Shown piece after piece: positions 5,080 through 20,016 of a stretch of DNA of 25,809 nt; within the stretch, counting starts at the first letter, position 1, and each line of letters begins with the position of its first letter. The stretch comes from an uncultured Bdellovibrionales bacterium (GTDB lineage Bacteria; Patescibacteriota; Minisyncoccia; Moranbacterales; UBA1568). A program made the translations under genes and the position numbers. The notes beneath the pieces were generated by a model. That model searched no databases and was not told the DNA's origin. It worked only from the letters and a program-made list of their open reading frames with translations. Where the stretch lies: positions 1 to 25,809 of the forward strand of contig CAYYET010000001.1 in NCBI GenBank assembly GCA_964471075.1, written 5' to 3'.

Positions 5080-6081
5080 ATGAAAAAGAAGTGTCTTGTT
5101 ATTGGAGGTGACGGCTTCATTGGAAGCCACGTCGTAGACGATCTTTTGGATCGTGGTTTTGAGGTGCGTGTTTTTGATCGTTTCCACAAAGGTCGCATCA
5201 AAAATCTCAAACACCTCAAGGGAAAAATTGAATTTCACAAAGGAAACTTTTTGAATAAGTGGCATTTGTCTCGGGCTTTGAAAGGCGTGGACTATGTTTT
5301 CCATTTCGTTTCTCTCAGTACCCCGGCTTCTACGGCTCATGACCCCATGGCTGAAATCCGTCTCAATCTAGAAGGAACGCTGCAGCTTCTTGATCTCTGT
5401 GTAAAATACGGAGTAAAGAAAGTAATCTATCCGTCGTCTGGTGGAGCAGTCTATGGCAATGCTTTGGAAGAAGTGGCTAGTGAGACGACTCAGGCTCGTC
5501 CAGTATCTCCGTATGCGGTGACCAAGCTTACCGTGGAAGAGTATCTTCACTTCTATAAGCGTCAGCACGATCTTGATTTCGTGATCTATCGTATCGCTAA
5601 CCCCTATGGTGAACGCCAGGATCCGAATGGTATCCAGGGAGCCATTCCTATTTTCATGAAGCACATGATCAAGGGGGAGGCACTGGATATTTACGGCAAT
5701 ACGGTTCGTGACTATATCTACGTGAAAGACGCTACCCGCTTTATTGTGGAAAGCTTTGATCAGCCCCATAAAAACACGACTTATAACGTCGGTACTGGCA
5801 AGGGAATCTCTCTCTTTGAATTAGTGCTTATGTTGGCTAAGACGACTGAAACTACACCAAAAATTAAGCGTTTGGAACGCCGTCCTTTTGATGTGCAAAA
5901 AATTGTGCTTGATATTGATCGAGCTAAAGAGGAATTTAACTTCTATCCAGAAACCAGTCTGGAAGTGGGTCTGGAAAAGACCTACGCCTATCTGAAAGAA
6001 AAATACGCTCATGAACCAAAAGCGCGCACGCCTTGGTTCGCTTGGGATTTCTCGAAAGTGATCAAATGGGGTAAAGTGTAA
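5080..6081 (+). CDS. NAD-dependent nucleotide-sugar epimerase/dehydratase (extended SDR, GalE-like)
   Basis: GGDGFIG Rossmann motif, SSGGAVYG, YAVTK (YxxxK), NPYG, RDYIYVKD. Confidence 0.9.
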   Translation: MKKKCLVIGGDGFIGSHVVDDLLDRGFEVRVFDRFHKGRIKNLKHLKGKIEFHKGNFLNKWHLSRALKGVDYVFHFVSLSTPASTAHDPMAEIRLNLEGTLQLLDLCVKYGVKKVIYPSSGGAVYGNALEEVASETTQARPVSPYAVTKLTVEEYLHFYKRQHDLDFVIYRIANPYGERQDPNGIQGAIPIFMKHMIKGEALDIYGNTVRDYIYVKDATRFIVESFDQPHKNTTYNVGTGKGISLFELVLMLAKTTETTPKIKRLERRPFDVQKIVLDIDRAKEEFNFYPETSLEVGLEKTYAYLKEKYAHEPKARTPWFAWDFSKVIKWGKV

Positions 6082-6096: not shown

Positions 6097-6139
6097 GTTC
6101 TTTACCAACGTTTCGTAATGAAACACTAACCGAGGAGAT
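6097..6139 (+). promoter_or_regulatory. boxA-like element + small hairpin + SD leader (copy 1)
   Basis: GTTCTTT (6097-6103)-acca-ACGTTTC (6108-6114). GTTTC-gtaat-GAAAC hairpin (6110-6124). CGAGGAGAT (6131-6139). The same blocks recur at 13701-13754. Confidence 0.55.
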
Positions 6140-6145
6140 TTGCTC

Positions 6146-6694
6146 ATGGAGCGCGTTTTTTGTGTGGTCCTCTTGTGTCTTCTGGTCTGCGTGAGAGCGT
6201 GGGCAGGAAACGAAGGGGTTGACGACTCTTTGTCTCCAAGCTTTCTGCAAAGCGACGCTGAGGCCTCGACCTTTGTTCCCAAAAAGGGAGTGATCCCCAG
6301 GGATTTCTCTGTGGAGTTGGTCTTGCCCAAAAAGAACCATGGCTCCGAAAGCAAAGCGAAGAGCAGTGAACTGAAGCAACTGGTCAGGAAGTTTTATCGG
6401 CCTTTGGGTCAACATGACAAGGGCCCGTATCTCGGGAAGTGCACAGTAGAACTGCGGGAGTGGTCGCTGGGGGATGTAATAACGGCTACTTTCCGTGTGG
6501 AATGCTGGTCGGTGCATCAGAAAGGAAAACGTGAAAGTAAAGCGTGGTTTCATCATTTCGACACTCCCGTCGAAGTCATGAACTATGTTGCCCAGGTAGC
6601 TGCTGAGCATGAGGAACGCATGCGGCCGACTCCCAAAGAGCCTGTCGGTTTGCCTGAAGACCTCCTCGAACCTGAGTGGGACGTAGTGACTTAA
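6146..6694 (+). CDS. Secreted hypothetical protein (ORFan, 182 aa)
   Basis: SD GAGGAG then ATG at 6146. Signal-peptide-like MERVFCVVLLCLLVCVRAWA|G. GC about 54% versus about 45% in the flanks. Has its own terminator. Confidence 0.7.
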   Translation: MERVFCVVLLCLLVCVRAWAGNEGVDDSLSPSFLQSDAEASTFVPKKGVIPRDFSVELVLPKKNHGSESKAKSSELKQLVRKFYRPLGQHDKGPYLGKCTVELREWSLGDVITATFRVECWSVHQKGKRESKAWFHHFDTPVEVMNYVAQVAAEHEERMRPTPKEPVGLPEDLLEPEWDVVT

Positions 6695-6705
6695 AGCATC
6701 CCAAC

Positions 6706-6746
6706 AAGCAGTGTCTCAAGATTCTTGAACACTGCTTTTTCTTTTT
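6706..6746 (+). terminator. Intrinsic terminator, probably shared by the convergent genes
   Basis: AAGCAGTGT-c-TCAAG / CTTGA-ACACTGCTT stem (6706-6737) followed by a T-tract that runs into the stop of the acetate-CoA ligase gene. Confidence 0.8.
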
Positions 6747-8853
6747 ACAAAGATTCTTTGAGACGAATACGAGCATCCAAGACACGGAAGCCAGCGCTTT
6801 CTTTGAAAGTGAGAAGAGGGTTGATATCAAGTTCTTCAATTTCTGGAAAATCCTGAACAAGAAGAGATAAACGACCAATAGCTTCAACCAGGGCTTCCAT
6901 ATCGATACCTTCTTTACCCCGCGTTCCCTGAAGCATGGGAAGACCCTTAAGTTCCATGAGCATTTCTTGAGCGTCTTCTTTGGTCAGGGGAGCAAAGCGA
7001 AACGAGACATCTTTGAAGACTTCTACAAAAATTCCTCCTAGGCCAACCATGAGCAGTTTACCGAGTCCTGGTTCATTCTTCAGGCCGAGAATAATCTCTT
7101 TTCCGCCTGTTTGAGCCATTTCTACCATGAGCGCTCCTTCCAGGCGTGCTTCGGGAACTTTTTCTTTGACCCGGCTGAGAAGTTCTTCATACTTTGCTCC
7201 TGCTTCTTCTTTCGTAACATTTAAGAGTACCCCTCCCGCGTCAGACTTGTGCGTGATATCAGGGGAAATAATCTTGAGAGCGCATGGACCAGAAAAACCT
7301 TTGATGGCTTCAGTGGCTTCTTCTGTACTGTGGACCACGGTACTTTTGAGAAAACGAAATCCGTAAGCAGAGAGAATATCCCACACCTCAGTTTCATAGA
7401 GAGTGCTGCGGCCGCGTTCTCGAACGTTCCTCATAACTCTTCGAGCACTTTCTTCATCAATATCATTAAAAGAAAAAGGTGTGGCGAGTTGGGTAGTGCG
7501 CCACTTGGTCAGTGTAGCCATGGCAGCCAAAGCTCGAGCTCCTGCTTCTGGATAGGTGACCGTGGCGACATTTTTTTCCTTGAGTACGGAGAGTCCTGGC
7601 TCCAAAGCTTCTTTTCCTGAGAAAACAGCCAAAAGTGGCTTGCCAAAGTGATTCTTAGTATTGACAATAGCCTCGGCTGTTTCCTTGGCTTCGGTCATGG
7701 CCTGAGGAGTGACAATGACCATCAGCATATCTACCCCAGGATCATGAGCCAGTGTTTCCAAGGCTAGTGTGTAACGATCAGAAAGAGCATCGCCGAGAAC
7801 ATCGACAGGATTACGCTTACTGGCTGCCGCAGGCAAGACCTGTAATTTCTCGACTGATTCGGGAGAGAGTGTAGCAATTTCCAGACCAGCGCTCACTGCT
7901 GCATCCGTGGCCAAAACTCCTAAGCCTCCCGCATTGGTGATAATTCCCAGACGCTTTCCTTGTGGGAGGGGGTTATGAGAAAAAACATGAAGGAGATTCG
8001 TGAGATGTTCAAGATCTTCCGCTCGAAGAATACGAGACTGAGTAAAGAGAGCTTGATAGGCCGCATCACTCCCAGCCAGCGCCCCGGTATGAGAACTTGA
8101 GGCAGCTGTCCCAGCACTGGTTCTTCCTGATTTTAGAGCGATCAAAGGCTTAGGTTCAGGACGAGCTAAGATGGCACGACCGCATTCAATAATTTTTTCT
8201 GCCTTACTGATGCCTTCGCTGTAAAAAGAAATAACATGCGTGTCTTTGTCTTGGGCGAGGAAGCCCAAAAGCTCTTCTTCCCCAACTACGGCCTTATTCC
8301 CATCACTAATGAAGAAAGAAAAGCCGAGGGTATCCGAAGCGAGATCCAGAAGGGCAGTGCAGAGGGCTCCACTTTGTGAGAAGAAAGCGATATTCCCAGG
8401 CTTGGGCATGCTTTTGGCAAAAGAGGCATTCAGGCCCACTTGAGGATGAAGAAAGCCGAGACAGTTTGGTCCGAGAATGGCAATGTCATATTCTTTAGCG
8501 ATTCGGATAATTTCTTGCTCCAAAGCTTTCCCTGCCTCTCCTGTTTCTTTGAACCCGGAAGAAATAATTACCGCTCCCCGCACACCTTTTTCTCCGGCTT
8601 CACGTAAAGCCTCTGGAACAAAAGCAGCGGGAATGATGATGATGGCCAGCTCTACCTCGTCTTTGATATCGGCGATGTTTTTGTAACAGGGCAGCCCAAA
8701 GAGCATATCTGCTTTGGGGTTTACCGGGTATACTTTTCCGGTATAACCATGATGGAGTAGATTCTCTGTGAGGCTATTGCCGACGCTTCCTGGTTTGGTA
8801 GAAGCGCCAATAACAGCTATAGAACGGGGGGAAAAGAGTGACGGAAGATGCAT
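6745..8853 (-). CDS. Acetate--CoA ligase (ADP-forming), fused alpha/beta (NDP-forming acyl-CoA synthetase)
   Basis: CoA-binding SPRSIAVIGAS, GPNCLG, SQSGAL, phospho-His motif SSHTGALAG, NPVD, C-terminal ATP-grasp (HKSDAGGV, ELDINP). No GNAT domain. Confidence 0.9.
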   Translation of the reverse strand: MHLPSLFSPRSIAVIGASTKPGSVGNSLTENLLHHGYTGKVYPVNPKADMLFGLPCYKNIADIKDEVELAIIIIPAAFVPEALREAGEKGVRGAVIISSGFKETGEAGKALEQEIIRIAKEYDIAILGPNCLGFLHPQVGLNASFAKSMPKPGNIAFFSQSGALCTALLDLASDTLGFSFFISDGNKAVVGEEELLGFLAQDKDTHVISFYSEGISKAEKIIECGRAILARPEPKPLIALKSGRTSAGTAASSSHTGALAGSDAAYQALFTQSRILRAEDLEHLTNLLHVFSHNPLPQGKRLGIITNAGGLGVLATDAAVSAGLEIATLSPESVEKLQVLPAAASKRNPVDVLGDALSDRYTLALETLAHDPGVDMLMVIVTPQAMTEAKETAEAIVNTKNHFGKPLLAVFSGKEALEPGLSVLKEKNVATVTYPEAGARALAAMATLTKWRTTQLATPFSFNDIDEESARRVMRNVRERGRSTLYETEVWDILSAYGFRFLKSTVVHSTEEATEAIKGFSGPCALKIISPDITHKSDAGGVLLNVTKEEAGAKYEELLSRVKEKVPEARLEGALMVEMAQTGGKEIILGLKNEPGLGKLLMVGLGGIFVEVFKDVSFRFAPLTKEDAQEMLMELKGLPMLQGTRGKEGIDMEALVEAIGRLSLLVQDFPEIEELDINPLLTFKESAGFRVLDARIRLKESL

Positions 8854-8944
8854 AAAAGAAATTGGATTTTATTTTTTAAAAAGGGCCTCAAAAAATGGCC
8901 AAGATTGAGGGTAAAAAACCACGAAATAGAGCCAAAACATCCCT

Positions 8945-8995
8945 ATTATAAACCAAAATCTTCCCCTTGACAAAAATGCTCAAATTTGCTACGAT
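8945..8995. promoter_or_regulatory. Back-to-back sigma70 promoters with overlapping -35 boxes
   Basis: Plus strand: TTGACA (8967-8972)-N17-TACGAT (8990-8995) with TGn. Minus strand: TTGTCA (8973-8968)-N17-TATAAT (8950-8945). Confidence 0.75.
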
Positions 8996-9026
8996 AGAGG
9001 GTCTAAAAATTCATGAGATAAATCGT

Positions 9027-9983
9027 ATGGACATTCGAAAGTTTTGGCTTTCTCGCGAGGTATTGCTGGGATTAACGCTCAGCGTGTTTATCATTGCTCC
9101 TTTGGTAGCCTTTGGAGGACATGATGATATCTATGTTGATGAAGATGCTGATGGTACCCAAACCGGAAGCGAGCTTCATCCATATCATACCATCTCTGAA
9201 GCTTTGAAACATGCTCACGAAGGTGACTATGTGCACATTGCCAAGGGTAAGTACAATGAAAATATTACTATTCCGGAAGGGGTAAAGCTCTTTGGTCGCA
9301 AGCAAGACAAGGGTGATGTGATTATTCGCTCTGACAATGATGATAAGGCTACGGTGACTATGCATCATCAGAGTGAATTGAACTATTTGACGATTGAAGA
9401 AGGTCGTCATGGTGTTCGTATCGACGAAGATGCCAAAGCCAAACTCTACAAAGTAGTGATCAAGGGCAGTGATCGTGATGGTGTCCATATTGATTCTGCT
9501 CCTCGTGATGAAAAGCACCGTGCGTTACTTGACTCTGTGGAAATTTCAGGAAGCAAGCGTGCTGGTGTGTACTCTGAACGCCGTGACCTGGTAATTATCA
9601 ACAGTGATATCCATAACAATGCCAGTGATGGTGTGGATTTGGCCGCTGGTATGGAGGCTTGGTTTGAACACAACCGCATTAGCAGCAACGGTGGAAGCGG
9701 TATCAAGGCAGTTCTCGACGGTGCTTCTGTGTGGAGTAAGTCTAATAGCATCCGGAGCAACGCTCGTGAAGGAGTGGAAGTAAATGCGTATGGTGCTGCT
9801 GGAAACGTTGGTTTGAAGAAGGCTGATTTGATTGGTAATGGTCGTTATGGAGTGGCTCGTGTTGCTCGTACGGCTAATGCCTGGAACACCTTTGGTGGTA
9901 TCATTTATGGTACCGATGTGAATGCCAATCGTATTGAAGGAAACCATGTCGGAGGAATTTCTCCTGTGATTCGTGGTTTCTAA
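9027..9983 (+). CDS. Exported right-handed parallel beta-helix protein (pectin-lyase-like, DUF1565-type N-terminus)
   Basis: N-terminal hydrophobic segment, IYVD...GSELHPYHTISEAL..A..GD.VHIAKGKY.E, and repeated N/G-rich PbH1-like units. The track's TTG start at 8967 coincides with the -35 box, so ATG 9027 is preferred. Confidence 0.8.
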   Translation: MDIRKFWLSREVLLGLTLSVFIIAPLVAFGGHDDIYVDEDADGTQTGSELHPYHTISEALKHAHEGDYVHIAKGKYNENITIPEGVKLFGRKQDKGDVIIRSDNDDKATVTMHHQSELNYLTIEEGRHGVRIDEDAKAKLYKVVIKGSDRDGVHIDSAPRDEKHRALLDSVEISGSKRAGVYSERRDLVIINSDIHNNASDGVDLAAGMEAWFEHNRISSNGGSGIKAVLDGASVWSKSNSIRSNAREGVEVNAYGAAGNVGLKKADLIGNGRYGVARVARTANAWNTFGGIIYGTDVNANRIEGNHVGGISPVIRGF

Positions 9984-10025
9984 CGAAACTCTTTTCGAGT
10001 TCTCTTAACCTCATCTGCTGTGGCT

Positions 10026-11189
10026 ATGAAAATTGCTTTCATCGGGCAAAAGGGTATTCCTGCTATTGCCGGCGGTGTTGAAAAACACGTCGAGAAGCTT
10101 TCTACTCGTCTGGCAGCAGAGGGACACGAGGTTTTTGTGTATGTGCGATCGCATTACACACCTCGAACGAAAGAATCATTCGAGGGAGTGAAGTTGGTTC
10201 ATGTCCCAACGATTCATACCAAGCACTTGGATGCCATCTCACATACTTTCTTTGCTACGCTTCATGCGTTGTTTCAGCCATATGATGTGATTCATTATCA
10301 GTCTATTGGTCCTAGTATCCTTTCGATTCTTCCTCGTCTCTTAAAGCCAAAAGCTCGAGTAGTAGCGACGTTTCATAGTCGTGACTATACCCATAAGAAG
10401 TGGGGTTTCTTGGCGCGTACCTTTCTGCACATTGCAGAATATATTACTTGTACCGTACCAGAGCGCACGATTGTTTCTAGTGAAACATTGATTGAATATG
10501 CCAAGGAACGTTATAACCGTGATGTAACCTTTATTCCCAGTGGTGCCGAAGTGACCTATGAAAGTGATACTGAAGCACTGGCTCAGTTTGGTTTGCGTCC
10601 GAAGCGTTATCTTTTGGCTGTGCATCGTTTGGTACCTCACAAGGGAACGCACTATTTGATCAAGGCTTTCAAGGAATTGGAAGATACCAATCGTCTCCCG
10701 AACAACTTCAAGTTAGTGATTGTGGGAGCCAATGCCAATACGGAGGAATACGAAGCGTTTTTGAAACACCTGTGTGTCGGTCGGCCAAATATTCTTTTGG
10801 TAGGTGAACAAACAGGAAAAATCTTGGAAACACTCTATTCCCATGCCTATTTGTATGTTCAGCCTTCTGAGCAGGAAGGTTTGTCACTGGCGCTTCTGGA
10901 AGCTATGGGTCATGGACTCTTGCCTTTGGTCAGTGACATTGAACCGCATAAAGAAGCCGTAGCCAATACTGGTGCGTTCTTTCCCGTAAAGAGTGTTGAA
11001 GGATTGAAGAAAGAACTGGCGTACTTCGTGAATCGCAGTGATGAAGTAGCTGCTTTAGGGAAAGCGGCTCAGGAACGGGTACATGAGCACTACAGCTGGG
11101 AAGCCAGTGCCAAAAAAACGCTTGAAGTATATCAGGATGTGATGAATCACAACATGAAAGAACACTATGCCTCTTTCCGCAGCAAGTAA
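10026..11189 (+). CDS. Glycosyltransferase family 4 (GT-B)
   Basis: MKIAFIGQKGIPAIAGGVEKHV, HRLVPHKG, PSEQEGLSLALLEAMG. Confidence 0.9.
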   Translation: MKIAFIGQKGIPAIAGGVEKHVEKLSTRLAAEGHEVFVYVRSHYTPRTKESFEGVKLVHVPTIHTKHLDAISHTFFATLHALFQPYDVIHYQSIGPSILSILPRLLKPKARVVATFHSRDYTHKKWGFLARTFLHIAEYITCTVPERTIVSSETLIEYAKERYNRDVTFIPSGAEVTYESDTEALAQFGLRPKRYLLAVHRLVPHKGTHYLIKAFKELEDTNRLPNNFKLVIVGANANTEEYEAFLKHLCVGRPNILLVGEQTGKILETLYSHAYLYVQPSEQEGLSLALLEAMGHGLLPLVSDIEPHKEAVANTGAFFPVKSVEGLKKELAYFVNRSDEVAALGKAAQERVHEHYSWEASAKKTLEVYQDVMNHNMKEHYASFRSK

Positions 11190-12201
11190 CAATTTTTTTC
11201 CTCGCACGCTGTGGCGCTCCTTTCTGGTGACGCTCGTTTTTGTGATGCTTGCATCCTTTTTGTTTTGGCTAGATTCTTTTCGGGCCTACCAAAGCGAAAT
11301 CCGTGTCTTGGTTTTGGCAAAGTCTCCGACACTAGAAGCGGATCAAGTGGTGGAAAACTTTACTGAACTTTCGAAAACCCTTTCTTTTTATGATCGTGTT
11401 CTTCAGGGAACCGATCTGCTGGATGATGAATTTGAAGGCTATTCGCCTGATCAGCGTCGAGCTCTGTGGAATGACATGGTCAGTGTTGAGCGTAGTGACA
11501 AAAGTGGCGTCCTGATCATTACCGCTCGGAAGGAACGATCAGAACAAGCCAAACTTCTTTCAGAAGAAACAAGTAAGGCATTGCTTTCTGTTGCTTCGTT
11601 TTATTATAATGTGAAGACAGATATCGACTTGCGTATTGTGGAAGGACCGATTGTGAGTACCACGATCACTCATCCATGGCGCTATGCTGCGACCAGCGTG
11701 ATGAGTGCTTTGGGAGTGACAGGTGCCTTCTTTCTGATCTTGTCACTTCTGCCAGCTCTTTTTGGAAAAAAGACTCAGATTCCAAAGCAAACGTTTCATA
11801 TTGGTGAAACGGTGCCCCTCATTGATCCCAAGAAATTTGTTCCTGCTCGTCCTACTAACCTGACTTTTGAGTCAGTACCAGAAGAAACTCCTGAATTGAT
11901 TGAAGAAGAGAAAGCGTCTTCCTTCGAAGAGGAAAAACTAGTTACCAATGAACGAATGCTTCCGGGAATGGATATTACCGAGCTTCCTTTTGAGTTCGAA
12001 GATACTTCTCGCGAAGAATCAGCTGAAGTTCCTGAGGGGGAAATATTTACCGAAACTATAGAGGAACCTGTTATTCTTGAAGAACTTCCGGTAGTTCAAA
12101 TGGAAGAAAAACAAGAACAGACGGCTCCTGAAGAGCCACGTGAGCCAACGATCGAAGAATACAAACGTCGTTTGAATGAACTTTTGGCTGGGGGACGCTA
12201 A
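11167..12201 (+). CDS. Wzz/CpsC-like polysaccharide co-polymerase with long acidic C-terminal tail
   Basis: Two TM segments flank an extracytoplasmic domain (AYQSEIRVLV after TM1, helix, then PIV..P before TM2), followed by a Glu/Pro-rich tail. Confidence 0.6.
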   Translation: MPLSAASNNFFPRTLWRSFLVTLVFVMLASFLFWLDSFRAYQSEIRVLVLAKSPTLEADQVVENFTELSKTLSFYDRVLQGTDLLDDEFEGYSPDQRRALWNDMVSVERSDKSGVLIITARKERSEQAKLLSEETSKALLSVASFYYNVKTDIDLRIVEGPIVSTTITHPWRYAATSVMSALGVTGAFFLILSLLPALFGKKTQIPKQTFHIGETVPLIDPKKFVPARPTNLTFESVPEETPELIEEEKASSFEEEKLVTNERMLPGMDITELPFEFEDTSREESAEVPEGEIFTETIEEPVILEELPVVQMEEKQEQTAPEEPREPTIEEYKRRLNELLAGGR

Positions 12202-12218
12202 TCTCTTATCTCGCCAAT

Positions 12219-13592
12219 ATGAAACAACCTTCAAAGAAACTGTGGTTTGTCTTTATAACAGTCTCTCTCTTGTTTCTGACAGGCTGGTTTATCTTTTGGC
12301 AGGTAAAAACTCATGGCTTAGATAGCTTGAAGCGTTTGTTAGGGCTTCTGCCGGTGAGTGAAGAAACGAGGACCGAACTTGATACGGTAATTTCTCTCGC
12401 TGATTCTCTTCTGTATACGAACGGTGAAGAAAAAGTTTTCCTCATCCTTTTCCAAAACAACATGGAACTCCGACCGGGAGGCGGCTTCATTGGCTCTTTT
12501 GGTATTCTCAAAGTCCGTGATGGTCATATTACTCATTTTGCGACGCATGATACGGGAAACTTTGACGGCCGTATTCCTGATACTGTTGCTCCTCCGTATC
12601 CAATGAAAGAAACGCTCAAGATCCCTTCATGGAAATTCCGTGATTCTAACTATTCTCCTGATTTTTCGGAGAATGCCAAGTGGGCTGAGGACTTTTACCA
12701 CATGGGGCAGGGGCAGGAACAGTTTGATGGCGTCGTGGCGATTACCACGAACGTCCTTTCTTCCTTCTTGCGTATTACGGGTCCCGTAGAAATCGAAGGT
12801 TATCCAGGAACGTATGATGCTGATAATGCTGTGTTGGATCTGGAACAACAGGTAGAGCAAGACTATGTGAAGCAAGGTATTGCCTTTGGTGAACGCAAAT
12901 CCGTGATGGGTCTTTTGGGCTTAGAAATTTTGCACCGAGTGAAAGCCTTGCCTCTAACAAAGCAGTATGAGCTCTTTCAGGCAGCTTTGGAAGATCTGAA
13001 CCGTAAGGATATTCAGCTGCTCTTTAAAGATGAGACACTACAGGATGAGGTAGTGAACGCTGGCTGGGATGGACGACTGGATGGTACCTGGAAAGATGAC
13101 TATCTCCTCCTCGTTGATGCCAACCTCAACTCTTTCAAAAGTGACTACTTCGTGAAGCGCACCTATCACTATACCGTAGATCTGACGAAGGAGGCGCCAG
13201 AAGTAGAGCTGACGGTCAACTATAACCATACAGCCAAGGAAAAAACTTGGTTTACCAAGGATTACCAGTCATATCTGCGGGTCTATGTACCAGAAGGGAG
13301 TTTCCTTACTGAAGTGACGGGAAATACTTCGTTACCTGTAACCTTTGGTCAGTTCCTGAATAAAAAATATTTTGGTGTGCTAGTACAGGTTCCTTTGGGA
13401 ACACAAAAAACAGTGGTGTTTCACTACACATTACCAAAAGGCCTGGAAAAAACATGGTATGATTTGAAGGTAGAAAAACAGCCTGGACTCAATGACGTGC
13501 CAGTAGAGGTGACAGTGATTAAGCCGGATGGTTCGAAAGAAGAAAAGAATTTTATCCTGAATAGAAATACCGTGTTGAGTGAAGTGGAATAA
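12219..13592 (+). CDS. DUF4012 domain membrane-anchored surface protein
   Basis: N-terminal TM, ILFQNNMELRPGGGFIG, FRDSNYSPDF, DGVVAIT, DANL...KSD, YLRVYVP.G, QPG motifs. Confidence 0.8.
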   Translation: MKQPSKKLWFVFITVSLLFLTGWFIFWQVKTHGLDSLKRLLGLLPVSEETRTELDTVISLADSLLYTNGEEKVFLILFQNNMELRPGGGFIGSFGILKVRDGHITHFATHDTGNFDGRIPDTVAPPYPMKETLKIPSWKFRDSNYSPDFSENAKWAEDFYHMGQGQEQFDGVVAITTNVLSSFLRITGPVEIEGYPGTYDADNAVLDLEQQVEQDYVKQGIAFGERKSVMGLLGLEILHRVKALPLTKQYELFQAALEDLNRKDIQLLFKDETLQDEVVNAGWDGRLDGTWKDDYLLLVDANLNSFKSDYFVKRTYHYTVDLTKEAPEVELTVNYNHTAKEKTWFTKDYQSYLRVYVPEGSFLTEVTGNTSLPVTFGQFLNKKYFGVLVQVPLGTQKTVVFHYTLPKGLEKTWYDLKVEKQPGLNDVPVEVTVIKPDGSKEEKNFILNRNTVLSEVE

Positions 13593-13600
13593 AACGCTAG

Positions 13601-13684
13601 CTTCGGAGGCGAATTCTCCGAGGCAGTAGCAAAGGGGTATCAAAGGCATGTGCGTATGTTGGTCTGATGCCCCTTGGCTACTGC
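13601..13684. repeat. Tandem inverted repeats including a 20-bp imperfect stem
   Basis: CTTCGGAG/CTCCGAGG (13601-13623). GCAGTAGCAAAGGGGTATCA (13623-13642) pairs with TGATGCCCCTTGGCTACTGC (13665-13684) with one mismatch and one G.U. No U-tract follows. Confidence 0.8.
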
Positions 13685-13700
13685 TCCTACTGGTGCAGCG

Positions 13701-13754
13701 GTTCTTTGTAAACGTTTCTGTCCCAACCAACGAAAGCGCTATGCGCGAGGAGAT
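13701..13754 (+). promoter_or_regulatory. boxA-like element + SD leader (copy 2)
   Basis: GTTCTTT (13701-13707)-gtaa-ACGTTTC (13712-13718). TTTC/GAAA pairing (13715-13735). CGAGGAGAT (13746-13754). Confidence 0.55.
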
Positions 13755-13758
13755 AGCC

Positions 13759-14208
13759 GTGAGTCAGTATGTTCTCCTATACATTGTTGCCGTCTTTCTG
13801 GCGGTATGTGCTTGCCTGGCCTACCCCATGGGTGAGCGCAAGGACATGAAAGAGCAATTCGAAGGGTCCAGGTCGTACTGCAAACCAAGAATCCTTCGCT
13901 GGCAGTTCCATGCTTACTGCTTCGTTCGAGCGATCCTGGTCCTTGGATTGAATCTCTTGCTCATCAAGGTGGTGGCGCTCGGTAAGCTTTCAGCAGGAAA
14001 CTGTTGGCTGCTTTTTCTGCTTGAAGGCGTGTTGCTCATTGGGCTCTACAACTTCATGCTTTTGAGGTATCGGCGTGATGCAAGGGATCATCTGGCGATG
14101 CACAGAACCTGTCCGAGGGATGAGCTGCCGCCGCCGCGTCCGCGCAGAACTGGAGAGATCCTCTTGGTAGGAGTTGCCGAAGAGATGTATGAAGGCCCTC
14201 GTTCTTAG
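13759..14208 (+). CDS. Membrane hypothetical protein (ORFan, about 3 TM, 149 aa)
   Basis: GTG at 13759 follows SD GAGGAG (13747-13752). The track start at 13648 lies inside the long inverted repeat. Three hydrophobic segments; GC above the flanks. Confidence 0.65.
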   Translation: MSQYVLLYIVAVFLAVCACLAYPMGERKDMKEQFEGSRSYCKPRILRWQFHAYCFVRAILVLGLNLLLIKVVALGKLSAGNCWLLFLLEGVLLIGLYNFMLLRYRRDARDHLAMHRTCPRDELPPPRPRRTGEILLVGVAEEMYEGPRS

Positions 14209-14221
14209 AGGGTGTTAGCAG

Positions 14222-14258
14222 AAGGCTTTAGGAATCATCCTAGAGCCTTTTTTCTTTT
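14222..14258 (+). terminator. Intrinsic terminator
   Basis: AAGGCTTTAGGA-atca-TCCTAGAGCCTT followed by TTTTCTTTT. Confidence 0.85.
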
Positions 14259-14261
14259 GTA

Positions 14262-19644: not shown

Positions 19645-19720
19645 TATAATAGGGATGTGAAAACACAAAAACAAGATAAGAATAGTTGGTGAGGCGGGCT
19701 AGTTTCCCGTCTTTTTGTTT
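19645..19720 (+). promoter_or_regulatory. Putative -10 box followed by a leader terminator (attenuator or short RNA)
   Basis: TATAAT (19645-19650). AGGCGGG/CCCGTCT hairpin (19692-19712) with TTTTGTTT upstream of the ORF start. Confidence 0.5.
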
Positions 19721-19743
19721 GGTTCTTTCGTATGGAGGTCAAC

Positions 19744-20016
19744 ATGGCGAGGGCGGTGCAATCTCGATGCCCTCATTGTGGAGGGCCTTATGATCCGAGA
19801 GATGGATATCCGGATCTGTACGGAGTTCGACTATGCTCACCAGGCTGTCAGGAGGAATGGCTTATCTTCTATCAGTACTGGAGCTCGCTGCCTGATGAGT
19901 CACTGCCTCAAATGGCGGATAGTACTTCGAGCCGTCAGATGGGGGATCGGACCAGGTCTCAGGGTCAACTCGGGGATCCTTCTCGTTGGGAAGATCCTGG
20001 GAAGCAAATGGAATAA
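19744..20016 (+). CDS. Small Cys4 metal-binding hypothetical protein (CPHC...CSPGC), 90 aa
   Basis: SD GGAGGT (19734-19739) then ATG 19744. CxxC-x18-CSxxC spacing resembles TRASH/treble-clef fingers. Confidence 0.65.
   Translation: MARAVQSRCPHCGGPYDPRDGYPDLYGVRLCSPGCQEEWLIFYQYWSSLPDESLPQMADSTSSRQMGDRTRSQGQLGDPSRWEDPGKQME

What the first reader, a model, noticed from the sequence alone, without database searches (positions are those of the whole stretch)
6097..13761. Shared boxA/boxB-like leader in front of two unrelated ORFans
Seen: upstream of the non-homologous genes at 6146 and 13759 the same three blocks occur in order: GTTCTTT-N4-ACGTTTC (6097-6114; 13701-13718), a TTTC/GAAA stem with different loop lengths, then CGAGGAGAT with the SD (6131-6139; 13746-13754). 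That is 23 identical positions. Partial echoes: GTTCTTT at 19722 before the Cys4 ORF, and CCCAACCA plus CGAGGAG shared with the 968 leader (941, 955; compare 13722). Known: GTTCTTT.. resembles rrn/lambda boxA (E. coli GCTCTTTAACA), bound by NusB-NusE, and lambda nut sites place a 5-bp boxB hairpin after boxA. Inference: a portable leader providing Nus-type antitermination or Rho protection plus strong initiation for newly acquired genes, or the remnant of an undescribed cassette-insertion mechanism.
Basis: partly seen in the sequence, partly recalled or inferred. Interest (0 to 1): 0.75.

Follow-up and report, generated by a model that had tools for sequence, protein, structure and literature searches.

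The report
rRNA-type boxA on mRNA leaders
Two small-protein genes in this tiny Moranbacteria (CPR) genome are preceded by a short RNA signal that matches the one in front of the genus's ribosomal RNA genes, and similar leaders precede a handful of other, mostly unannotated small genes across the genus, which has no detectable Rho terminator protein.

Summary
The three-block identity ranks 12th of 300,700 upstream-region pairs in this genome, and shuffles give 1-8 such pairs.

Comparative data rescue part of it. Block 1 (GTTCTTT plus the next 5 nt) sits where orthologous leaders in the genus carry a motif matching the genus's own rrn-leader boxA (TTCTTTAACAAT). With a matrix built only from 19 rrn leaders, 7 of 16 leader-2 orthologues score at least 9 bits; no count from 2000 permuted matrices reached this. 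Window leader 1 scores at the 99th percentile. Window leader 2 is a decayed copy.

The same layout (promoter, sometimes a hairpin, boxA, SD, small ORF) recurs in this genome and genus, mostly before genes without Pfam hits: 18 of 23, against 8 of 20 controls.

Block 2 and the 'boxB-like' stems are not supported. Block 3 is a strong SD. The two genes are syntenic, fast-evolving genus-specific families, not inserted cassettes.

NusB, NusA, NusG and S10 are present. Rho was not found in 50 of 50 genus genomes, and SuhB was not found in this genome.

Most likely this is a NusB-S10 binding site on mRNA leaders. Its effect (translation control or read-through of hairpin terminators) is inferred, not shown.

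The parts
6097..6109 (+). boxA-like element of leader 1 (GTTCTTTACCAAC), 36 nt before the start codon
   Evidence: Scores 9.9 bits with the rrn-derived matrix, the 99th percentile of G000 upstream regions. Matches 10 of 11 positions of the gamma-proteobacterial consensus GYTCTTTAANA (PMC5725501). Orthologous leaders carry GTTGTTTAACA, GTTGTTTGACAAT, GCTGTTTAACA and GACTTACCAAT at the same place. 3 of 10 orthologues score at least 6 bits, p = 0.0035 against permuted matrices.
   Evidence: Kept in G011 with a different loop (AAAC) but not in nine other orthologous leaders. The whole leader folds no better than shuffles (z = 0.0).
6131..6148 (+). Shine-Dalgarno block CGAGGAGAT and ATG start of the family-1 gene
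   Evidence: GAGGAG is 7 nt before the ATG at 6146. Only 3 of the 10 genomic copies of the 9-mer are real SDs.
6146..6694 (+). family-1 gene: 182-aa protein with an N-terminal signal peptide, no Pfam family
   Evidence: No Pfam hit. Hydrophobic N-terminus. phmmer-detectable homologues at the syntenic site in 7 other genus species (E 7e-45 to 2e-5). 50% identity in G011.
13600..13624 (+). first hairpin after the DUF4012 gene stop
   Evidence: Predicted stem 13600-13609 / 13615-13624. A hairpin of different sequence is present at the same place in relatives.
13624..13683 (+). long conserved hairpin with invariant loop GCATGTG. In most relatives a T-tract follows (terminator-like); the window and G011 have lost it
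   Evidence: The 13593-13700 region folds at -54.3 kcal/mol, z = -5.1. 21 consensus pairs, 9 with compensatory double changes in 16 species. No Rfam family.
13701..13713 (+). decayed boxA-like element of leader 2 (GTTCTTTGTAAAC)
   Evidence: Scores only -0.1 bits with the rrn matrix. It lies at the position (about 57 nt before the start) where 9 of 16 orthologous leaders score at least 6 bits and 7 of 16 at least 9 bits. No count from 2000 permuted matrices reached these.
13736..13746 (+). GCGC-TAT-GCGC mini-hairpin abutting the SD
   Evidence: GCGC(C)-NNN-(G)GCGC next to AGGAGA is present in 8 or more leader-2 orthologues.
13746..13761 (+). SD block CGAGGAGAT and GTG start of the family-2 gene
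   Evidence: CGAGGAGATAGCCGTG is also the SD-start string of G021 leader 1, and C81:1482 differs at one base.
13759..14208 (+). family-2 gene: 149-aa protein with 2-3 predicted TM segments, no Pfam family
   Evidence: No Pfam hit. Hydrophobic segments at 1-19, 50-68 and 77-95. 31% identity in G011. Positional homologues in about 16 genus species.
14220..14260 (+). intrinsic-terminator-like hairpin plus T-tract after the family-2 gene, before trmD
   Evidence: 14-pair stem followed by TTCTTTTGTA.
19685..19747 (+). partial echo: hairpin, TTTTTGTTTGG, GTTCTTTCGTA, SD GGAGG, ATG of a 94-aa Cys-rich ORF
   Evidence: Same order of parts as the leader-2 family, but the boxA match is poor. No Pfam hit for the ORF.

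Best explanation
Block 1 is a boxA-type RNA element, the short single-stranded signal that NusB-S10 (NusE) binds in rRNA leaders, placed here in the 5' leaders of protein-coding genes.

In this Moranbacteria genus a handful of genes per genome carry it. Most encode small, fast-evolving secreted, membrane or unannotated proteins. The element sits either a few nucleotides after a sigma-70-type promoter or after a hairpin, and 2-45 nt before the SD.

The window's leader 1 is a good copy. Leader 2 is a decayed copy of a leader that in relatives has a covarying hairpin, a T-tract and a near-consensus boxA.

Shown: the sequence match to the genus rrn boxA; sense orientation; conservation at three independent orthologous loci; presence of NusB, NusA, NusG and S10; no detectable Rho.

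Inferred: NusB-S10 binds these leaders. The consequence is one of two things. Either translation of these genes is tuned to the free NusB/S10 pool, as at E. coli suhB, where boxA lies 6 nt from the SD. Or RNA polymerase is modified to read through the hairpin terminators that flank these genes.

The ACGTTTC block and the small stems are lineage-specific or chance. The CGAGGAGAT block is simply a strong SD.
For: (1) 19 genus rrn leaders carry nnYCTTTAACAAYTGAG after a promoter and hairpin. This is close to E. coli UGCUCUUUAACA and arranged like B. subtilis rrn, hairpin then boxA (PMC13753749).

(2) A matrix built only from those rrn sites finds sense-strand matches 26-58 nt before the start in the leader-2 family. 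9 of 16 score at least 6 bits and 7 of 16 at least 9 bits. No count from 2000 permuted matrices reached these, and reverse-complement scores are all 5.7 bits or lower. TTCTTT is the most widely shared hexamer in these leaders.

(3) In the leader-1 family, 3 of 10 orthologues score at least 6 bits (p = 0.0035). The window site scores 9.9 bits, the 99th percentile.

(4) Third locus: orthologues of the C11 gene share only 28-30% protein identity in G016 and G002, yet keep the promoter, the TGAGGCAAC spacer and a boxA variant.

(5) The layout promoter TTGACA-N17-TAnnnT, then boxA, then SD, then ORF is seen at C27, C79, C36, C59, C94, C78 and C11 in G000 and in about half of 30 sampled sites in other species.

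(6) G000 leaders hold 15 sense against 8 antisense sites of at least 9 bits. The permuted-matrix null is 6.0 +/- 3.7, p about 0.03. The 12-mer TTCYTTAMCAAY occurs 163 times against 86 for the backwards control in 50 genomes (summed by hand).

(7) NusB, NusA, NusG and S10 are encoded.

(8) Precedent: boxA within 50 nt of start codons regulates suhB and a ParE toxin gene (PMC5725501).
Against: - No binding or expression data exist, and no RNA run was listed.
- The window's own leader-2 site scores -0.1 bits.
- Several leader-1 orthologues have G where E. coli needs C4 (GTTGTTT), so they may not bind NusB.
- Genome-wide enrichment is modest (about 2-fold).
- The 7-nt core alone is no more frequent than reversed controls.
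- Related species are not independent samples.
- In the leader-2 family the boxA lies after the terminator-like hairpin, so it cannot prevent termination there.
- SuhB, part of the E. coli complex, was not found in this genome.
- G000's own rrn leader is not assembled.
Confidence: 0.6

Rival explanations
1. Chance plus shared SD. The two leaders resemble each other only because T-rich words and strong SDs are common upstream of genes. The boxA resemblance has no function at these two genes.
For: The three-block match ranks 12th of 300,700 pairs, and shuffles give 1-8 equal or better pairs. GTTCTTT occurs 349 times in the genome and is not enriched in leaders against reversed controls. Window leader 2 scores -0.1 bits.
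Against: Orthologous leaders of both genes match an independently derived rrn matrix far more often than permuted matrices do. A third locus shows the same. Window leader 1 is at the 99th percentile.
Confidence: 0.15
2. A Nus-independent RNA element. The pyrimidine-rich word could be an S1-type translational enhancer, an anti-SD-like tract that pairs with the GAGGAG SD, or the distal part of a terminator T-tract.
For: UUCUUU can pair with GAGGAG through G-U pairs, and the lowest-energy fold of leader 2 pairs them. The motif often follows a hairpin and T-tract. It lies 2-45 nt from the SD.
Against: The specific and best conserved part is the AACAA half, which cannot pair with the SD. The folds are no better than shuffles. 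At C11, C78 and C81 the word is 2 nt from the SD, too close to pair. The same word stands in rrn leaders 170-350 nt from the 16S, where no SD exists. 16S rRNA has no complement to it.
Confidence: 0.15
3. A binding site for an unknown lineage-specific RNA- or DNA-binding regulator that also acts at rrn leaders.
For: In this genus the invariant part of the rrn motif is TTAACAA rather than the 8-nt 5' half that NusB-NusE contact in Aquifex and E. coli (PMC3177189). SuhB was not found.
Against: The motif equals canonical boxA at 10 of 12 positions. NusB and S10 are present. No candidate regulator was identified.
Confidence: 0.1

Closest known systems
boxA elements in mRNA 5' UTRs of gamma-proteobacteria (suhB, rpsJ, prsA, ParE-like toxin; Baniulyte et al. 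2017, PMC5725501) and upstream of CRISPR arrays (mentioned in PMC13753749)
   Same: An rrn-type boxA word on the sense strand within about 50 nt of a start codon, often a few nt from the SD, a few instances per genome, conserved at orthologous loci.
   Different: - The lineage is CPR / Moranbacteria.
- No Rho was detected, so the Rho-dependent half of the suhB mechanism cannot apply. SuhB was not found either.
- The targets are mostly small unannotated secreted or membrane proteins, not Nus or translation genes.
- No boxA lies before nusB, and S10 has only a degenerate look-alike.
- ACC variants are common on mRNAs but absent from the 19 rrn leaders examined.
rrn leader antitermination signal (boxB-boxA-boxC in E. 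coli; 5' hairpin then boxA in B. subtilis, PMC13753749)
   Same: The same boxA word. In the leader-2 family, in some leader-1 orthologues and at C94, a hairpin precedes boxA, as in the genus rrn leaders.
   Different: It precedes protein-coding genes. The hairpins are unrelated in sequence to the rrn leader hairpin. boxC was not examined.
lambda nut sites (boxA, spacer, boxB hairpin bound by N)
   Same: A boxA-like word followed by a short stem-loop in window leader 1 and in G011.
   Different: The stem is not conserved beyond G011, the loops differ (GTAAT, AAAC, a 13-nt loop), and the fold is not better than shuffles. No N-like protein was sought or found.
Processive antitermination RNAs of polysaccharide operons (EAR element, LoaP leader; from my own knowledge and PMC12691694)
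   Same: A conserved structured RNA inside a glycan-type gene cluster (epimerase, GT4, DUF4012), next to terminator-like hairpins.
   Different: No sequence or Rfam match. Only one NusG-domain gene was detected, and it was not checked for LoaP or RfaH features. This is an analogy only.

Membership tests
boxA (NusB-NusE binding RNA element) | Sequence matches the boxA consensus of the organism's own rrn leaders | tested here: met
   Leader 1 scores 9.9 bits with the matrix built from 19 genus rrn leaders, the 99th percentile of upstream regions. It matches 10 of 11 positions of GYTCTTTAANA. G000's own rrn is unassembled, so the genus consensus was used.
boxA (NusB-NusE binding RNA element) | The same, for leader 2 in the window | tested here: not met
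   Scores -0.1 bits. It keeps GTTCTTT but its 3' half is TTTGTAAAC. Orthologous leaders at the same position do match, so it looks like a decayed copy.
boxA (NusB-NusE binding RNA element) | Lies on the transcribed sense strand of a leader | tested here: met
   Both sites are on the coding strand, 36 and 45 nt before the start codons. In relatives all matches are sense-strand.
boxA (NusB-NusE binding RNA element) | Conserved at orthologous loci while the flanks diverge | tested here: met
   Leader-2 family: 7 of 16 at 9 bits or more. Leader-1 family: 3 of 10 at 6 bits or more. C11 locus: boxA kept at 28-30% protein identity.
boxA (NusB-NusE binding RNA element) | NusB and S10 (NusE) encoded, with NusA and NusG | tested here: met
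   PF01029 on C36, PF00338 on C69, PF08529 on C34, PF02357 on C10. SuhB (PF00459) was not found.
boxA (NusB-NusE binding RNA element) | NusB-NusE binds the RNA, and mutating boxA or nusB changes expression | not testable with these tools
   No RNA runs were listed. This needs biochemistry or reporters.
lambda-type nut site (boxA + boxB) | Conserved boxB stem-loop downstream of boxA | tested here: not met
   The stem is present only in the window and G011 for leader 1. Loops differ, and folding z-scores are 0.0 and +0.5.
Rho-antagonising leader | The organism encodes Rho | tested here: not met
   Rho_RNA_bind was found in 0 of 50 genus genomes, 38 of them high quality. TIGR00767 gave only a 41-bit ATPase-like hit against a cut-off of 509.
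Mobile gene cassette / insertion remnant | Variable presence at a conserved site with target duplications or recombination sites; gene foreign to its neighbourhood | tested here: not met
   The locus is collinear with G011, and both genes have positional homologues across the genus. About 7 species lack the family-2 gene and its leader, but no flanking repeats were seen by eye and no dedicated repeat search was run. GCATGTG is kept in both filled and empty forms.

The most novel reading that the evidence does not exclude
Moranbacteria (CPR), which show no detectable Rho and apparently no SuhB, have extended the rRNA boxA / NusB-S10 signal into a general leader module. The module is a promoter or hairpin, then boxA, then a strong SD. 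It is used for a class of small, rapidly evolving secreted, membrane or unannotated genes. It would tie their expression to ribosome-synthesis status, or allow read-through of the hairpin terminators that insulate them. This would be a use of Nus factors independent of Rho and aimed at accessory surface proteins.
Probability: 0.35. Interest if true: 0.65.

Novelty: new variant of a known kind. Interest (0 to 1): 0.55.

Why it matters
BoxA-mediated control of protein-coding genes has been shown only in gamma-proteobacteria, where it works together with Rho. Finding conserved rrn-type boxA words on mRNA leaders in a CPR genus with no detectable Rho would show that NusB-S10 has Rho-independent regulatory targets. 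It would also give a first handle on gene regulation in Patescibacteria, whose small surface proteins are thought to matter for their epibiotic life. And it offers a simple sequence tag for finding co-regulated unannotated genes in these genomes.

Tried and rejected
- Exact-pattern search for GTTCTTT-N4-ACGTTTC in 60 relatives gave no hits. The 18-nt pattern is not a family signature.
- Rfam at gathering threshold on the window and on six other contig regions, and at permissive threshold on 13560-13800, gave only chance miRNA-like hairpin hits.
- The base-pairing enhancer idea fails: no complement of the motif exists in the 16S of three genus members.
- The idea that boxA-led genes form a paralogous family fails: no BLASTP hits among them.
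- The -10-like / sigma-pause idea is rejected. Many mRNA copies end in C (AACAAC), and the motif also lies far from promoters, in rrn leaders, in leader 2 and after a tRNA at C37.
- Autoregulation of nus genes: no boxA lies before nusB, and S10 has only GTTCTCTTGAAAAAA after a hairpin.
- The loop word GCATGTGC is not enriched genome-wide: 9 copies against about 19 expected.
- Transcript evidence: no RNA runs were listed, only wastewater DNA metagenomes.
- One alignment used wrong strands for some loci and was redone.
- My gene calls are a crude ORF heuristic. Start sites and 'intergenic' labels are approximate, which weakens the genome-wide counts.


Full report
**Observation**

The 18-nt pattern occurs twice in the 830-kb, 104-contig assembly and in none of 60 relatives.

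Taken as a pairwise similarity it is near chance. I compared all 300,700 pairs of 70-nt upstream regions in the genome for collinear exact blocks of at least 7 nt. Twelve pairs reach a total of 24 nt, and this pair ranks 12th. Twenty shuffles that kept the SD region gave 1-8 such pairs. Within one window of about 26 genes the chance is about 1%. The match alone therefore proves little.

**Organism and setting**

Close relatives are labelled Candidatus Moranbacteria / Moraniibacteriota, a CPR / Patescibacteria group. The MAG is 94.7% complete.

The finding spans a glycan-type cluster:
- an NAD-dependent epimerase (5080-6081);
- the 6146 gene;
- an ADP-forming acyl-CoA synthetase on the minus strand;
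- a beta-helix protein, a GT4 glycosyltransferase and a DUF4012 protein (12219-13592);
- the 13759 gene;
- trmD and ftsW.

The locus is collinear with species G011 of the same genus at about 74% nt identity.

**The two genes are not ORFans in the strict sense**

Gene 6146 encodes a signal-peptide protein. It has phmmer-detectable homologues at the same site in seven other species. Gene 13759 encodes a small protein with 2-3 TM segments. It has detectable homologues in two species and positional homologues in about 16. Both lack Pfam families. They are fast-evolving, genus-restricted genes, not recent insertions.

**What block 1 is**

Nineteen genus genomes with an assembled 16S show the same rrn leader:
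- a TTGACA-N17-TATACT promoter;
- a hairpin followed by TTTTGTTTCT;
- (T)TTCTTTAACAATTGAG, with variants CCTTAACAAT and ACTTAACAAT, 170-350 nt before the 16S.

This is canonical boxA. The E. coli form is UGCUCUUUAACA. B. subtilis has a 5' hairpin and then AUGAUCUUUGAAA (PMC13753749).

I built a 12-column matrix from these rrn sites only and scored the leaders.
- In G000 upstream regions the 95th percentile is 6.3 bits and the 99th is 10.0.
- Window leader 1 (GTTCTTTACCAAC) scores 9.9 bits.
- Of 16 orthologous leader-2 sequences, 9 score at least 6 bits and 7 at least 9 bits. All are on the sense strand, 26-58 nt before the start. No count from 2000 column-permuted matrices reached these.
- Examples are G021 GTTTCTTTAACAATTT, G070 TTTCTTTACCAATTGA and G018 GTTTCTTTACCAAC.
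- TTCTTT is the most widely shared hexamer in these leaders, ahead of the SD.
- In the leader-1 family, 3 of 10 orthologues score at least 6 bits (p = 0.0035).
- The window's leader-2 site scores only -0.1 bits. It stands at the homologous position but has lost the AACAA half. The window and G011 have also lost the T-tract after the upstream hairpin.

**A wider leader type**

In G000, sites of at least 9 bits number 36 in the 13% of the genome I called intergenic. The coding sequence holds 28 sense and 74 antisense sites.

The strongest sites share one layout: a sigma-70-type promoter, sometimes a hairpin, then boxA, then the SD, then a small ORF. This is seen at C27, C11, C78, C79, C36, C59 and C94. 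At C37 the boxA directly follows a tRNA.

About half of 30 sites sampled in other species have the same layout, and two of the 30 are rrn leaders.

A third orthologous locus confirms selection. Homologues of the C11 gene share 66%, 30% and 28% protein identity. All of them keep the promoter, the TGAGGCAAC spacer and a boxA variant: TTCCTTAACAAC, TTCCTCAACAAC, CTCTTTACCAAC or TTCTTTACCAAC.

The genome-wide excess is modest:
- 15 sense against 8 antisense leaders at 9 bits or more, with a permuted null of 6.0 +/- 3.7, p about 0.03.
- 163 against 86 occurrences of the 12-mer and its backwards control in 50 genomes (summed by hand).

That amounts to a few sites per genome, as in gamma-proteobacteria, where 0-7 per genome were reported (PMC5725501).

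**Association with unannotated genes**

- Of the 11 G000 genes with the strongest leaders, 1 has a Pfam hit, a weak Trypsin_2.
- Of 20 length-matched controls, 12 have one (Fisher p = 0.008).
- In other species, 8 of 12 boxA-led genes have none. The four with hits are a DHODH, a radical-SAM/BATS protein, a THDPS-like protein and a DksA/TraR zinc finger.
- Combined: 18 of 23 without a hit against 8 of 20, p = 0.014.
- The proteins are unrelated to each other. One of them, the C78 gene, was found in no other genus genome.

**Blocks 2 and 3 and the stems**

ACGTTTC and the GTTTC/GAAAC stem are kept only in G011, and other boxA leaders lack them. Leader 1 and the 3' part of leader 2 fold no better than shuffles (z = 0.0 and +0.5).

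CGAGGAGAT is a strong SD. Only three of its ten copies are real SDs: 6131, 13746 and C81:1482. All three have GTTCTTT upstream and precede small membrane or secreted proteins. C81 is a weak independent hint (p about 0.03) that the pairing of blocks 1 and 3 is not accidental.

The 7-mer GTTCTTT by itself is not enriched against reversed controls.

**Nus and Rho**

NusB, NusA, NusG and S10 are encoded. SuhB was not found in G000. No Rho RNA-binding domain was found in any of 50 genus genomes, and the rho model gives only a 41-bit hit against a cut-off of 509. Protection from Rho is therefore not a credible function.

**Mechanism**

NusB-NusE recognise about 8 nt of boxA (PMC3177189). At E. coli suhB a boxA 6 nt from the SD represses translation through the full Nus complex (PMC5725501). 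The rrn complex also interferes with hairpin-dependent termination (statement in PMC13753749).

Here boxA often lies 2-10 nt from the SD, for example at C11, C78 and C76. The boxA-led genes in this window are flanked by terminator-like hairpins.

I favour NusB-S10 binding that modulates translation. Read-through of downstream intrinsic terminators is the main alternative effect. Neither is shown.

The boxA of the leader-2 family lies after its hairpin and T-tract. It cannot prevent termination there. This matches the rrn order of hairpin then boxA.

**Side finding**

The hairpin at 13624-13683 is a strongly covarying RNA structure. It has 21 pairs, 9 with compensatory changes, and an invariant loop GCATGTG. 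The surrounding region folds with z = -5.1, and there is no Rfam match. Species that lack the family-2 gene still keep TTGCATGTGCAC after the DUF4012 stop.

**Verdict**

The boxB, Rho and cassette ideas are not supported. This is a new variant of a known kind of element. It is of moderate interest, and it is untested experimentally.

Noticed in passing
window 13624-13683 (and L024-L047 in relatives): Long covarying hairpin downstream of the DUF4012 gene with an invariant loop GCATGTG. It has 21 pairs, 9 with compensatory changes, and no Rfam match. Species lacking the family-2 gene still keep TTGCATGTGCAC before a plain terminator. Function unknown; possibly a protein-binding or processing site at the 3' end of the glycan operon.
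   Followed up: partly
L050-L073 (genus rrn leaders): rrn leaders in the genus begin with a promoter, then a conserved hairpin (AAGCAATC...GATTGC) followed by a U-rich tract that looks like an intrinsic terminator, then boxA, then a conserved CACAATTTTTTGTGGTTAGTCC hairpin.
   Followed up: partly
G000 contig C33:3467 (minus strand; L080): A consensus promoter (TTGACT-N17-TATAAT) and a 16-bit boxA (TTCCTTAACAAC) are followed by about 110 nt with no SD-preceded ORF of 30 aa or more and no Rfam hit. It contains a CACAAT...ATTGTG stem like the rrn leaders. It could be this MAG's own rrn leader fragment or an unknown RNA gene.
   Followed up: partly
G000 contig C94 (2.6 kb): Three boxA-like leaders lie on one short contig that also encodes an HNH endonuclease-like protein and an M15 peptidase. 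This gene content looks phage-like and may link boxA leaders to mobile DNA.
   Followed up: no
G000 contig C81:1440-1500: A third leader combines GTTCTTT, CCGAGGAGAT and a GTG start (CGAGGAGATATCCGTG, one base different from window 13746-13761). It precedes a 78-aa protein with an N-terminal TM segment.
   Followed up: partly
L019 (G021, leader of the family-1 gene): The SD-to-start string CGAGGAGATAGCCGTG is identical over 16 nt to the window's leader 2, although it precedes the other gene family in another species.
   Followed up: no
G000 contig C69, upstream of rpsJ (S10): After tuf, a hairpin is followed by GTTCTCTTGAAAAAA about 45 nt before the S10 start. This is a degenerate boxA look-alike that might reflect S10 autoregulation.
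   Followed up: no
window 6058-6081 versus L011 (G011): The last 24 coding bases of the window's epimerase gene are conserved in G011. There they seem to lie after an earlier stop codon and a terminator-like hairpin, so the same DNA may be coding in one species and leader in the other.
   Followed up: no
whole genus (50 genomes): No Rho RNA-binding domain in any genome of the genus, and no SuhB/inositol monophosphatase domain in G000.
   Followed up: partly
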